Part shown: piece by piece, positions 20,208 through 34,727 of the stretch
How the letters are laid out: each line of letters begins with the position of its first letter
How positions within the stretch are numbered: position 1 is the first letter of the stretch
Source of the DNA: Nemertoderma westbladi
Lineage: Eukaryota; Animalia; Xenacoelomorpha
Direction: 5' to 3'
Assembly: GCA_032718475.1 (NCBI GenBank)
Contig: JAUCBJ010001903.1
Location: 1 to 40,581, forward strand
Length of the DNA: 40,581 nt
Notes under the pieces: generated by a model
What the model was told of the DNA's origin: nothing
Database searches by the model: none
Seen by the model: the letters and a program-made list of their open reading frames with translations, nothing else
Translations under genes and position numbers: made by a program

Positions 20208-21030
20208 CGTATTTCCCTGGTAACTAATCTTCCCGTATTTCCCAGGTATCTAATCTTCCCGTATTTCCCTGGTAACTAATCTTCCCGTATTTCCCAGGTA
20301 ACTAATCTTCCCATATTTCCCTGGTAACTAATCTTCCCGTATTTCCCTGGTAACTAATCTTCCCGTATTTCCCAGGTAACTAATCTTCCCGTATTTCCCT
20401 GGTAACTAATCTTCCCGTATTTCCCAGGTAACTAATCTTCCCGTATTTCCCTGGTAACTAATCTTCCCGTATTTCCCAGGTAACTAATCTTCCCGTATTT
20501 CCCTGGTAACTAATCTTCCCGTATTTCCCAGGTAACTAATCTTCCCGTATATCCCAGGTAAGTAATCTTCCCGTATTTCCCAGGTAACTAATCTTCCCGT
20601 ATTTCCCAGGTAACTAATCTTCCCGTATTTCCCAGGTAACTAATCTTCCTGTTTTTCCCAGGTAACTAATCTTCCCGTATTTCCCAGGTAAGTAATCTTC
20701 CCGTATTTCCCAGGTAACTAATCTTCCCTTATTTCCCAGGTAACTAGTCTTCCCGTATTTCCCAGGTAACTAATCTTCCCGTATTTCCCAGGTAAGTAAT
20801 CTTCCCGTATTTCCCAGGTCACTAATCTTCACGTATTTCCCAGGTAACTAATCTTCCCGTATTTCCCTGGTAACTAATCTTCCCGTATTTCCCTGGTAAC
20901 TAATCTTCCCGTATTTCCCAGGTAAGTAATCTTCCCGTATTTCCCAGGTCACTAATCTTCCCGTATTTCCCAGGTAACTAATCTTCCCGTGTTTCCCAGG
21001 TAACTAATCTTCCCGTATTTCCCAGGTAAC
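20208..21030 (+). repeat. 26-bp tandem array (~31 units) whose last unit is the exon 4 splice acceptor
   Basis: Unit TAATCTTCCCGTATTTCCCAGGTAAC. The final CCCAG|GTAAC continues directly into ATTCTACTG (G-N-I-L-L). Confidence 0.97.
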
Positions 21031-21196
21031 ATTCTACTGACTGATAGAGGAACAGTGAAACTCGGCGACTTTGGTTCGGCCTCTCTCAGCTGCCCGGCCA
21101 ACTCGTTCGTGGGCACCCCCTATTGGATGAGCCCCGAAGTTATACTCGCAATGGATGAGGGCCAATACTCAGAGAAAGCAGATATATGGAGTTTAG
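21026..21196 (+). CDS. TAOK: TAO kinase coding exon 4 ([57 protein letters not shown])
   Basis: DFG, TAO activation loop [12 protein letters not shown], diagnostic [10 protein letters not shown], donor G|GTGAGT, phase 1. Confidence 0.98.
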
Positions 21197-21279
21197 GTGA
21201 GTTGTAGTCACTTTATTCTACATTAAATTCGTATTTCCTGCTGTAATTAGGTTTAAAGTGATGTATGTTATGCACATCG

Positions 21280-21350
21280 GTTTATTTCACTATAATGCTG
21301 TTTATTTCACTATAATACTGTTTATTTCACTATAATACTGTTTATTTTAC
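21280..21350. repeat. 20-bp tandem repeat, ~3.5 units (TTTATTTCACTATAATACTG)
   Basis: Directly visible. Confidence 0.85.
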
Positions 21351-21391
21351 TCAAGTGCACCTAATTTTAATGCATTTGACCAGTTCAAACA

Positions 21392-21801
21392 CTCTCTATC
21401 ATGCTAACTATTTTATTTTCCAGTTTACCATACCGTTTAGCATACTCTTCTCTCTATCATGCTAACTATTTTATTTTCCAGTTTACCATACCGTTTAGCA
21501 TACTCTTCTCTCTATCATGCTAACTATTTTATTTTCCAGTTTACCATACAGTTTAGCATACTCTTCTCTCTATCATGCTAACTATTTTATTTTCCAGTTT
21601 ACCATACCGTTTAGCATACTCTTCTCTCTATCATGCTAACTATTTTATTTTCCAGTTTACCATACCGTTTAGCATACTCTTCTCTCTATCATGCTAACTA
21701 TTTTATTTTCCAGTTTACCATACCGTTTAGCATACTCTTCTCTCTATCATGCTAACTATTTTATTTTCCAGTTTACCATACCGTTTAGCATACTCTTCTC
21801 T
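21392..21801 (+). repeat. 58-bp tandem array, 7 units, each containing a consensus-like 3' splice site
   Basis: Unit contains TGCTAACTATTTTATTTTCCAG|TTTACC. Confidence 0.95.
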
Positions 21802-30990: not shown

Positions 30991-31116
30991 TATCGAGAGA
31001 ACATGGCGGGGTACAAACGAATGCGGCGTCTTCATCAGAATCAGTTGAAGATGTTAGAAGATAAGTTGGAAACTGAGATGAATGAACTAGCTAACAAACT
31101 CGAGAAGGAGTTGGAT
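30991..31116 (+). CDS. TAOK: TAO kinase coding exon 9 (YRENMAGYKRMRRLHQNQLKMLEDKL...EKELD)
   Basis: Acceptor CCTCCAG, conserved M.GYKRMRR.HQ.QL, donor GAT|GTGAGT, phase 0. Confidence 0.95.
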
Positions 31117-31313
31117 GTGAGTGTCTCTCCGGGTGTTTGTCAGCTGTTAGTAGGTAGATAGTGACCGCTTATTGGTGGCGAATCAACCGGAACTCTCGTA
31201 CTAATTAATAGCCTTGTAGCCGCAATTATAAGCAGCATCTTAGAGATTAACGTAAGTGTCAACACTGGCGTTACCGAAAAGACATAGTTTATATCGCTTT
31301 TATTTCTTTCCAG

Positions 31314-31496
31314 TCGCTCCTTCAGAGCCACAGTAAAGAGATCGAGAAATGTCGTACGAAACGGGTCCAGGAGTTAGAGAAACACGCAAAGAACCACGGA
31401 ATAGAGTTAACTCGTCTCCAGAAGCACTTGAAACAGGAACAAGAGGGAGAGCTGAAGGCGTTACAGACGAGACACAAGCACGATTGCAAGAAAAGG
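31314..31496 (+). CDS. TAOK: TAO kinase coding exon 10, coiled coil (SLLQSHSKEIEK...HKHDCKKR)
   Basis: Acceptor TTTCTTTCCAG, 61 open codons rich in E/K/Q/L, donor AGG|GTAGGT, phase 0. Confidence 0.9.
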
Positions 31497-31665
31497 GTAG
31501 GTATTGCAATAATTTATCGAAAATGTAGTAATATATCATTACGCTAAGGCTTCGATAAACTCGTGACTCGCCCCTCCAAATGTTCTAATGTATTAAATAT
31601 GTGGCTTCTGTTAGCCACATATTTTTTCACGAATATTTAATAAACATTTATTTACTTTATATCAG

Positions 31666-31845
31666 GTTGACATTCTTAAGAAAGGGAACGCTTCTAAAGA
31701 TTCCTTGAAGTCTTACATGGACGACATGACGGCCTATAGAATAGAAGAAGAGGACAATCTGTCTCACAAACTCCGACAATCTATAGACCTACAAGTGAGA
31801 CGTCAGAAGCGAAGCATGTTGCTGCAGAGACACATATGCGAGGAG
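31666..31845 (+). CDS. TAOK: TAO kinase coding exon 11 (VDILKKG...RRQKRSMLLQRHICEE)
   Basis: Acceptor ATATCAG. RR.KR.MLL.RH resembles the TAO coiled coil. First donor GAG|GTAAGC, phase 0; a second in-frame donor lies at 31882. Confidence 0.9.
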
Positions 31846-34727
31846 GTAAGCATGTTACTGCAGAGACATATATGCGAGGAGGTAAGCATGTTGCTGCAGA
31901 GACATATGCGAGGAGTTAGGTATGTTGCTGCATAGACATATATGCGAGGAGGTAAGCATGTTGCTGCAGAGACAATGTGCGAGGAGGTAGATATGTTGCT
32001 GCAGGCACATATGCGAGGAGGTAAGCATGTTGCTGCAGGCACATATGCGAGGAGGTAGATATGTTACCGCAGAGACATATGCGAGGAGGTAGGATTGTTG
32101 CTGCAGAGAAATATACGAGGAGGCAGATATGTTACTGCAGAGACATTTATGCGAGGGGGTAAGCATGTTACTGCAGGCACATATGCGAGGAGGTAGATAT
32201 GTTACTGCAGAGACATATGCGAGGAGGTAGGTATGTTACTGCAGAGAAATATACGAGGAGGCAGATATGTTACTGCAGAGACATTTATGCGAGGGGGTAA
32301 GCATGTTACTGCAGGCACATATGCGAGGAGGTAGATATGTTACTGCAGAGACATATATGCGAGGAGGTAAGCATGTTGCTGCAGAGACATATGCGAGGAG
32401 TTAGGTATGTTGCTGCATAGACATATATGCGAGGAGGTAAGCATGTTGCTGCAGAGACAATGTGCGAGGAGGTAGATATGTTACCGCAGAGACATATGCG
32501 AGGAGGTAGGATTGTTGCTGCAGAGAAATATACGAGGAGGCAGATATGTTACTGCAGAGACATTTATGCGAGGGGGTAAGCATGTTGCTACAGGCACATA
32601 TGCGAGGAGGTTAGCATGTTGCTGCAGGCACATATGCGAGGAGGTAAGCATGTTGCTGCAGGCACATATGCGAGGAGGTTAGCATGTTGCTGCAGGCACA
32701 TATGCGAGGAGGTAGGTATGTTGCTGCAGGCACATATGCGAGGAGGTAAGCATGTTGCTGCAGGCACATATGCGAGGAGGTAAGCATGTTGCTGCAGGCA
32801 CATATGCGAGGAGCTAAGCATGTTGCTGCAGGCACATATGCGAGGAGGTAAGCATGTTGCTGCAGGCACATATGCGAGGAGGTAGATATGTTACCGCAGA
32901 GACATATGCGAGGAGGTAGGATTGTTGCTGCAGAGAAATATACGAGGAGGCAGATATGTTACTGCAGAGACATATGCGAGGAGGTAGGTATGTTACTGCA
33001 GAGACATATGCGAGGAGGTAGATATGGTACTGCAGAGACATTTATGCGAGGAGGTAAGCATGTTATTGCAGGCACATATGCGAGGAGGTAAGCATGTTGC
33101 TGCAGGCACATATGTGAGGAGATAGATATGTTACTGCAGAGACATATGCGAGGAGGCAGATATGTTACTGCAGAGACATTTATGCGAGGAGGTAAGCATG
33201 TTATTGCAGGCACATATGCGAGGAGGTAAGCATGTTGCTGCAGGCACATATGTGAGGAGATAGATATGTTACTGCAGAGACATATGCGAGGAGGTAGGTA
33301 TGTTACTGCAGAGACATATGCGAGGAGGTAGATATGTTACTGTAGAGATATATGCGAGGAGGTAGATATGTTACTGCAGAGACATATGCGAGGAGGTAGG
33401 TATGTTGCTGCAGGCACATATGCGATGAGGTAGGTATGTTGCTGCAGGCACATATGCGAGGAGGTAGGTATGTTGCTGCAGGCACATATTCGAGGAGGTA
33501 GATATGTTACTGCAGAGACATATGCGAGGAGGCAGATATGGTACTGCAGAGACATATGCGAGGAGGTAGGTATGGTACTGCAGAGACATATGCGAGGAGG
33601 TAGGTATGGTACTGCAGAGACATATGCGAGGAGGCAGATATGTTACTGCAGAGACATTTATGCGAGGAGGTAAGCATGTTATTGCAGGCACATATGCGAG
33701 GAGGTAGATATGGTACTGCAGAGACATATGCGAGGAGGTAGGTATGTTACTGCAGAGACATTTATGCGAGGAGGTAAGCATGTTATTGCAGGCACATATG
33801 CGAGGAGGTAGATATGGTACTGCAGAGACATATGCGAGGAGGTAGGTATGGTACTGCAGAGACATATGCGAGGAGGCAGATATGTTACTGCAGAGACATT
33901 TATGCGAGGAGGTAAGCATGTTGCTGCAGAGACATATGCGAGGAGGTAGGTATGGTACTGCAGAGACATATGCGAGGAGGCAGATATGTTACTGCAGAGA
34001 CATTTATGCGAGGAGGTAAGCATGTTATTGCAGGCACATATGCGAGGAGGTAGATATGGTACTGCAGAGACATATGCGAGGAGGTAGATATGTTACTGTA
34101 GAGATATATGCGAGGAGGTAGATATGTTACTGCAGAGACATATGCGAGGAGGTAGGTATGTTGCTACAGGCACATATGCGAGGAGGTAGGTATGTTGCTG
34201 CAGGCACATATGCGAGGAGGTAGATATGTTACTGCAGAGACATATGCGAGGAGGTAGATATGTTACTGTAGAGATATATGCGAGGAGGTAGATATGTTAC
34301 TGCAGAGACATTTATGCGAGGAGGTAAGCATGTTATTGCAGGCACATATGCGAGGAGGTAAGCATGTTGCTGCAGGCACATATGCGAGGAGGTAGATATG
34401 TTACTGCAGAGACATATGCGAGGAGGTAGATATGTTACTGTAGAGATATATGCGAGGAGGTAGATGTTACTGCAGAGACATATGCGAGGAGGTAGGTATG
34501 TTGCTACAGGCACATATGCGAGGAGGTAGGTATGTTGCTGCAGGCACATATGCGAGGAGGTAGGTATGTTGCTGCAGGCACATATGCGAGGAGGTAGGTA
34601 TGTTGCTGCAGGCACATATGCGAGGAGGTAGGTATGTTGCTGCAGGCACATATGCGAAGAGGTAGATATGTTGCTGCAGGCACATATGCGAAGAGGTAAG
34701 CATGTTGCTGCAGAGACATATGTGCGA
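31812..34727 (+). repeat. 34-36-bp tandem array (~80-85 units) made of the 3' end of exon 11 plus its donor site
   Basis: Unit AAGCATGTTGCTGCAGAGACATATGCGAGGAGGT; the first unit is coding sequence. Confidence 0.97.

What the first reader, a model, noticed from the sequence alone, without database searches (positions are those of the whole stretch)
20208..34727. Splice junctions of one gene repeatedly amplified into sense-strand satellites
Seen: four unrelated arrays (26, 58, 31 and 34-36 bp) in four different introns each carry splice signals in the sense orientation. Three of them form or abut a real junction: the exon 4 acceptor, the exon 7 acceptor and the exon 11 donor. There is also an incipient duplication of the exon 6 end. 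Established: tandem duplication across an AG|GT site is a proposed route of intron gain, and the spliceosome must discriminate decoy sites. Inference: either a mutational bias seeds tandem amplification at exon-intron boundaries in this genome, or arrays are tolerated or used there (recursive splicing, NMD-coupled dosage control that varies with copy number). With ~17 kb of the window in arrays some adjacency is expected by chance, but arrays that include exon sequence are harder to explain that way.
Basis: partly seen in the sequence, partly recalled or inferred. Interest (0 to 1): 0.85.

Follow-up and report, generated by a model that had tools for sequence, protein, structure and literature searches.

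The report
Splice-junction "mirage" repeats in TAO kinase
In an animal's TAO kinase gene, two exon borders are copied head-to-tail about 32 and 85 times into the neighbouring introns, yet the assembled transcript uses the copy next to the exon, so this is likely a harmless, large example of a repeat type already known from lancelets and humans.

Summary
The window holds coding exons 1-12 of an animal TAO kinase gene. Two of the four arrays span a junction: a 26-bp unit over the exon 4 acceptor (22 spare AG sites upstream) and a 34-36-bp unit over the exon 11 donor (about 85 copies). The 31-bp array stops 15 nt short of exon 7 and holds no exon sequence. The 58-bp array is mid-intron, and the transcript skips it. 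Spliced contigs from one run use the exon-proximal site at all three junctions. Array units also occur in a second, allelically different DNA run, so an artefact is unlikely; lengths were not checked. Excess at junctions is modest: 3 of 18 arrays against 0.73 expected (P about 0.03), but 2 of 23 junctions (P = 0.21) in a second test, in a window picked for the pattern. This is the lancelet "mirage" / human F7-type minisatellite. The scan noted it before, in many genes of this genome and in at least 34 genomes (unchecked notes). No support for intron gain, recursive splicing or NMD tuning. The genome-wide test was impossible: no genome is held.

The parts
7232..7382 (+). TAO kinase coding exon 1 (from ATG)
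   Evidence: open 659-aa ORF over 12 exons; homolog alignment
10706..10905 (+). exon 2
11591..11702 (+). exon 3
   Evidence: its 3' end is the loose end joined to exon 4 in run X4
20208..21030 (+). 26-bp acceptor mirage, 31.7 copies; unit holds a branch-like CTAAT, pyrimidine tract, AG and the first 5 nt of exon 4; 22 decoy AG, 4 of them followed by GTAAGT
   Evidence: present with variants in X2
21026..21196 (+). exon 4 (kinase DFG motif); entered at the last AG of the array
   Evidence: X4 contig of 1032 nt; Pkinase hit
21392..21801 (+). 58-bp mid-intron array, 7.1 copies, strong acceptor-like motif, not at a used junction
22699..22866 (+). exon 5
   Evidence: joined directly to exon 4 in X4
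23042..23181 (+). exon 6
23164..23242 (+). decayed 29-bp repeat of the exon 6 end, 2.7 copies, no good spare donor
23690..28417 (+). 31-bp array, 152 copies, ends 15 nt before exon 7; last partial copy holds the candidate branch points (-17, -27)
28433..28734 (+). exon 7
   Evidence: X4 contig of 3078 nt
30406..30529 (+). exon 8
30991..31116 (+). exon 9
31314..31496 (+). exon 10
31666..31845 (+). exon 11; transcript contig leaves the DNA at 31845, the first donor
31812..34722 (+). 34-36-bp donor mirage, about 85 copies of the exon 11 end plus GT; 39 unit variants among 81 intervals
35158..35278 (+). exon 12 (last coding exon found in the window)

Best explanation
Two of the arrays are 'mirage' minisatellites: short pieces spanning the exon 4 acceptor and the exon 11 donor are repeated head-to-tail into the intron, the assembled transcript uses the copy next to the exon, and the spare sites are likely tolerated by-products with no role. 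How it works: (1) shown, arrays fill 43% of this window, mostly away from junctions; (2) inferred, ordinary local duplication followed by slippage or unequal exchange seeds and grows them; (3) inferred, duplications inside coding exons are purged, while one that straddles a border survives when the exon-side copy still makes a working site, so it can grow only into the intron; (4) shown for the dominant contig, inferred as mechanism, exon definition or proximal scanning picks the nearest site; (5) predicted, stray use of a decoy gives a premature stop and is cleared by NMD, except donor 2, which would add 12 residues in frame. The 31-bp array likely supplies the exon 7 branch point by adjacency, and the 58-bp array is likely an ordinary intronic array with a chance acceptor motif.
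For: Gene model open over 12 exons and colinear with homologs at the conserved junctions. X4 contig joins exon 3 to the last AG of the 26-bp array and exon 4 straight to exon 5; it was the only X4 record laid there. A second X4 contig enters at exon 7, skips introns 7-10 and leaves at the first donor; the bin depth of 416.8 equals that contig alone. 19 decoy donors score above the real one (10.9 against 7.7 bits) yet are not seen used, as in F7 (PMC1557585). 15 of 18 arrays do not span a coding junction. 0 of 372 exon-internal positions have a local copy, against 3.7% of 1500 intron positions. All 31 upstream sites of the 26-bp array give a stop at codon 3, and donors beyond the second run into a stop at 31933. 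The same anatomy on both borders, with normal splicing, is reported for lancelets (PMC3087553, PMC3902484).
Against: A survival filter alone predicts no excess over intron background, yet array-centred tests show one (3 of 18 against 0.73, P = 0.03; 3 of 6 arrays with 20 or more copies lie within 20 nt, P = 0.004). The RNA evidence is contigs of one run, labelled 'DNA?' by the tool, and contigs drop rare and NMD-depleted forms. The join from exon 11 to exon 12 was not seen directly. The most variable base of the 26-bp unit is the A of the AG and that of the 31-bp unit is the candidate branch A, a hint that decoys are not wholly neutral.
Confidence: 0.65

Rival explanations
1. Exon-edge mutational bias: DNA breaks or slippage are concentrated at or near exons (transcription- or splicing-coupled lesions, or higher duplication rates in exon sequence), so junction-spanning arrays are seeded more often than chance. 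The arrays stay functionless; this differs from the best reading only in origin.
For: Modest excess in array-centred tests, strongest for long arrays (P = 0.004 to 0.04). Unchecked notes report the same anatomy in many other genes of this genome and measured excess in other animals.
Against: Junction-centred test not significant (2 of 23, P = 0.21); 2 of 9 arrays of 3 or more copies inside the gene span, P = 0.10. The window was chosen for the pattern and the notes were retrieved with matching words. No mechanism was observed.
Confidence: 0.25
2. The arrays are used: decoy acceptors and donors divert a copy-number-dependent share of transcripts to NMD, or the AG-GTAAGT units act as recursive splice sites.
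For: All decoy acceptors give an immediate stop; 4 units carry an AG followed by a 12.4-bit donor. Decoy use is reported for human IFI6 and CBS (PMC1557585, Introduction). Unit variants differ between DNA runs.
Against: No contig of X4 supports any decoy. Stops in intron-derived sequence are expected by chance. The AG-GT junction is simply inherited from exon 4 starting with GT, and the GTAAGT variant is one base change that may have been copied, in 4 of 31 units.
Confidence: 0.06
3. The arrays, or most of their length, are assembly artefacts.
For: No long reads were available; no laid record spans an array.
Against: Run X2, from another study and with different alleles, has a contig that bridges 45 nt of the 26-bp array into exon 4 and multi-copy depth plus 34-bp unit variants at the exon 11 array. 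Units are diverse and nested (39 variants), unlike a collapsed or repeated read.
Confidence: 0.03
4. The introns were gained by these duplications (Rogers' AG-GT duplication model).
For: The 26-bp unit begins with GT and ends with AG, like a minimal intron; mirages are proposed as a route to intron gain (PMC3087553).
Against: Each array occupies one end of an intron whose other end is unrelated sequence; the transcript shows no extra intron or exon.
Confidence: 0.02

Closest known systems
Lancelet 'mirage' minisatellites: globins BflGb6 (acceptor side) and BflGb9 (donor side), Adh3, troponin C, PGBD5. PMC3087553 and PMC3902484, passages read; the Adh3 and troponin C papers were not read, only cited there
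   Same: [quoted passage not shown]
   Different: Copy numbers here are 32 and about 85, against 2-7 for the globin and PGBD5 cases. The host is an unplaced animal whose TAO kinase is at most about 50% identical to any homolog compared; no lancelet protein was compared.
Human F7 intron 7 37-bp VNTR, with IFI6 (6-16), CBS, LMNB2 and PDGF cases. PMC1557585, abstract, Introduction and Discussion read
   Same: First monomer spans the donor; downstream pseudo-sites are functional but silent because the most upstream site wins, even against stronger sites.
   Different: The F7 unit is mostly intron (4 nt of exon), here mostly exon (about 34 nt); 5-25 copies in the human cases against about 85; IFI6 and CBS use one or two pseudo-sites, none seen here at contig resolution.
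Variable internal tandem repeats at exon-intron boundaries in human duplicated genes. PMC2812944, passages read
   Same: Minisatellite units of about 30 bp at exon borders.
   Different: There they create new introns or alternative transcripts; neither is seen here.

Membership tests
Mirage minisatellite | Tandem unit spans a real exon-intron boundary (26-bp and 34-36-bp arrays) | tested here: met
   junctions confirmed by spliced contigs
Mirage minisatellite | Tandem unit spans a real boundary (31-bp and 58-bp arrays) | tested here: not met
   31-bp array ends 15 nt before exon 7, descent from the acceptor not significant; 58-bp array is skipped. These two are not filed as mirages.
Mirage minisatellite | Many but not all copies keep AG or GT | tested here: met
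   23 of 32 AG; 70 of 81 GT
Mirage minisatellite | Normal mRNA splicing at the exon-proximal copy | tested here: met
   dominant contigs of one run; rare isoforms not visible
Mirage minisatellite | Length variation between alleles | tested here: inconclusive
   unit variants differ in X2 and summed depths are lower, but the tool's depth is no copy number
Mirage minisatellite | Somatic instability (reported for Adh3) | not testable with these tools
   needs single-molecule reads from tissues
Recursive splice site | AG directly followed by a strong donor inside a long intron | tested here: met
   4 units, 12.4 bits
Recursive splice site | Splicing intermediates in nascent RNA | not testable with these tools
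   only contigs were offered; none lay there
Intron gained by tandem duplication | Both intron ends are copies of the flanking exon sequence | tested here: not met
   arrays lie at one end only
TAO kinase (host gene) | N-terminal Ser/Thr kinase domain with best hits named TAO, followed by a C-terminal region alignable to TAO proteins | tested here: met

The most novel reading that the evidence does not exclude
This animal's genome seeds minisatellites preferentially at exon edges through an exon-linked DNA lesion or repair process, and selection then acts inside the arrays to disarm decoys: the most variable base of the 26-bp unit is the A of the acceptor AG (9 of 32 sites) and that of the 31-bp unit is the candidate branch adenosine (61 A, 74 C of 139 units). 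Such a genome would be a natural panel of hundreds of graded splice-site choice experiments.
Probability: 0.25. Interest if true: 0.6.

Novelty: new member of a known kind. Interest (0 to 1): 0.25.

Why it matters
As it stands it is one more, fairly large, example of a known repeat type. It shows exon-proximal choice holding against 22 spare acceptors and dozens of spare donors, some stronger than the real one. It would matter more if a genome-wide test showed real enrichment at exon edges, because the origin of mirages is stated as unclear (PMC3087553) and my seven paper searches (listings only, open-licence library) listed no genome-wide analysis. This window cannot settle that.

Tried and rejected
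Whole genome: none held, so no genome-wide enrichment or strand test.

Poison-exon idea for the 58-bp array (32-nt cassette 21772-21803 with an in-frame stop): its donor scores 3.4 bits against 8.0-13.4 for the real ones, such a donor lies within 40 nt of 26% of intron positions, and the X4 contig joins exon 4 to exon 5. Not supported, not excluded.

31-bp unit as an old, decayed acceptor copy: P = 0.39 and 0.18; it aligns as well or better to 5 of the other 10 acceptors. The non-redundant part of the 26-bp unit is not exon-like either (P = 0.69).

Placing the organism: exon 11 found no scored relative, exon 10 none among representatives, exons 1 and 2 only distant TAO kinases.

No RNA holder was listed as such. 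X5 shares only repeat DNA, mainly the retroelement; X6 laid nothing.

No exon 13 found in 35279-40581. No notes near this window; one word look-up was empty. The paper search for recursive splicing in tandem arrays returned 0. PMC10078293 (passages) concerns repeats near splice sites, not junction copies.
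Full report
Gene. The finding lies in an animal TAO kinase gene on the + strand. Twelve GT-AG-bounded coding exons (7232 to 35278) give an open frame of 659 residues. Exon 2 retrieved 2563 proteins, with TAO names among the best 120. The joined protein is at most about 50% identical to the best of those 120 (top 25 rows shown) and aligns without a break across the conserved junctions, including 3/4, 6/7 and 11/12. 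The gene runs on beyond the window; no exon 13 was found. The organism could not be placed and no genome is held.

The arrays. Tandem Repeats Finder lists all four. Eighteen merged arrays with a period of 20 or more cover 17,269 bases, 42.6% of the window. The 26-bp array has 32 equivalent sites, of which 23 have AG, 9 have TG and 4 read AG then GTAAGT. It overlaps exon 4 by 5 nt and supplies the only branch-like motif upstream of the real acceptor, at -19. Any upstream site, if used, gives a stop at the third codon (31 of 31). The 34-36-bp array starts inside exon 11 and repeats its last 34 or so bases plus GT about 85 times. Of 81 scored sites, 70 keep GT with one anchor and 66 with another; a few double-length intervals were not split. 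Donor 2 would add 12 residues in frame; later donors include a stop at 31933. By inference, positions +3 to +6 of today's donor may be exon-derived, since the same four bases open the unit inside the exon. The 31-bp array ends 15 nt before exon 7 and holds the candidate branch points, but no exon sequence and no significant likeness to the acceptor. The 58-bp array has a strong acceptor motif but no used junction. The exon 6 repeat is decayed and has no good spare donor. So two arrays are true junction copies, one abuts, one is unrelated, and one small repeat is marginal.

Are splice motifs special? With matrices trained on 11 donors and 10 acceptors of this gene (the two array-embedded sites left out), one central unit from each of 13 arrays was scored on both strands. 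The 26-bp and 58-bp units score well in sense, and the sampled 34-bp unit gave a sense acceptor motif (p = 0.014) rather than a strong donor. The unflagged mid-intron 56-bp unit also scores well in sense, while the 62-, 42- and 22-bp units have their best donors antisense. The matrices are small-sample and rough.

More than chance? Placing one unit per array at random on the collapsed window, excluding wholly exonic places, gives 0.73 expected overlaps against 3 of 18 observed (P = 0.033), and 1.1 against 4 of 18 within 20 nt (P = 0.02). For arrays of 3 or more copies inside the gene span it is 2 of 9 (P = 0.10). For arrays of 20 or more copies it is 2 of 6 (P = 0.02), or 3 of 6 within 20 nt (P = 0.004). 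A junction-centred test found a local copy at 2 of 23 junctions, against 3.7% of 1500 sampled intron positions (P = 0.21) and 0 of 372 exon-internal positions. These tests are post hoc on a window chosen for the pattern, so the excess is suggestive at most.

Public runs. Seven runs were listed and five were laid. X4, labelled 'DNA?', holds spliced contigs. A 1032-nt contig joins the end of exon 3 to the last AG of the 26-bp array and exon 4 directly to exon 5; it was the only X4 record on 20965-21478. A 3078-nt contig enters at exon 7, skips introns 7 to 10 at GT-AG and leaves the DNA at 31845, the first donor, although the laid stretch ran to 31890. Its continuation was not displayed. Contigs drop rare forms, so this shows the dominant isoform only. 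X1 is nearly identical to the window and may be its source, so it is not independent. X2, from another study, differs in alleles (8 other letters and 7 gaps in 719 nt) yet bridges 45 nt of the 26-bp array into exon 4, with three changes in the last unit. It also carries multi-copy sequence at the exon 11 array, where its single contig passes the donor by only 15 nt, short of the tool's bridging rule. Summed depths are lower in X2 (about 218 against 736 at the 26-bp array, 316 against 2342 at the 34-bp array, single copy about 21-31), a weak hint of shorter alleles; the tool warns that this is no copy number.

Mechanism. The likeliest account is ordinary minisatellite birth and growth in repeat-rich introns, a survival filter at exon borders, exon-proximal site choice, and NMD as a backstop. 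Shown: the anatomy and the proximal choice in dominant contigs. Inferred: duplication mechanism, filter, NMD. The filter alone cannot produce an excess over introns, so if a genome-wide excess exists an exon-linked bias is also needed (rival 1, 0.25). One hint against full neutrality: the most variable base is the A of the AG in the 26-bp unit and the candidate branch A in the 31-bp unit. Copies share descent and this was noticed post hoc, so it is weak.

What is known. Tandem repeats spanning exon-intron borders are described in lancelets as 'mirages', on both borders, with normal splicing, variable copy number and unclear origin (PMC3087553, passages; PMC3902484, passages). In human F7 the most upstream donor wins over identical and stronger pseudo-sites, while IFI6 and CBS use one or two spare donors (PMC1557585, abstract, Introduction and Discussion). 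PMC2812944 (passages) covers border repeats that make new introns. Supplements of these papers were not opened. The name 'mirage' and the two lancelet papers came to me from earlier scan notes; the F7 paper also came up in my own search. Those notes, unchecked by me, describe the same anatomy in many other genes of this genome and 334 findings in at least 34 genomes hold the words. I use them as leads, not as support.

Verdict. Observation partly confirmed; interpretation partly supported (tolerated yes, used no evidence, bias open). New member of a known kind; interest 0.25.

Noticed in passing
window 28868-30338: Broken non-LTR retroelement in intron 7, sense strand, with reverse-transcriptase pieces in two frames and a short TAG-repeat tail ending about 70 nt before exon 8. 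Summed depth is thousands of times single copy in X1 and X2, and the element family is also in run X5 of another organism label.
   Followed up: partly
window 16413-19526: 56-bp array (56 copies) in intron 3 whose unit has an internal inverted repeat (seen in the sequence) and a strong sense donor motif (10.4 bits); no exon is associated with it in the transcript contig.
   Followed up: partly
window 21280-21351: 20-bp array lacks one unit in run X2: direct evidence of copy-number polymorphism in intron 4.
   Followed up: yes
window 6708-6727 and 7199-7231: Candidate 20-nt 5' UTR microexon with good AG and GTGAGT, and an acceptor about 33 nt before the ATG; a 99-bp duplication starts 25 nt after the microexon donor. 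The X4 contig has about 190 nt upstream of the ATG by length arithmetic.
   Followed up: no
window 10634-10677 and 11535-11571: Two small repeats (21-bp times 2.1; ATAC times 8.8) end 28 and 19 nt before the exon 2 and exon 3 acceptors.
   Followed up: partly
window 21772-21803: Possible 32-nt stop-containing cassette at the last 58-bp unit; strong acceptor, weak donor, not in the contig.
   Followed up: yes
window 38087-39904 and 37335-37686: 53-bp (about 32 copies plus a decayed lead-in) and 22-bp (16 copies) arrays in intron 12, far from any exon found.
   Followed up: no
window 1900-2100 and 35400-35850: A dispersed repeat with similar sequence occurs at both places (seen), possibly a small mobile element.
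   Followed up: no
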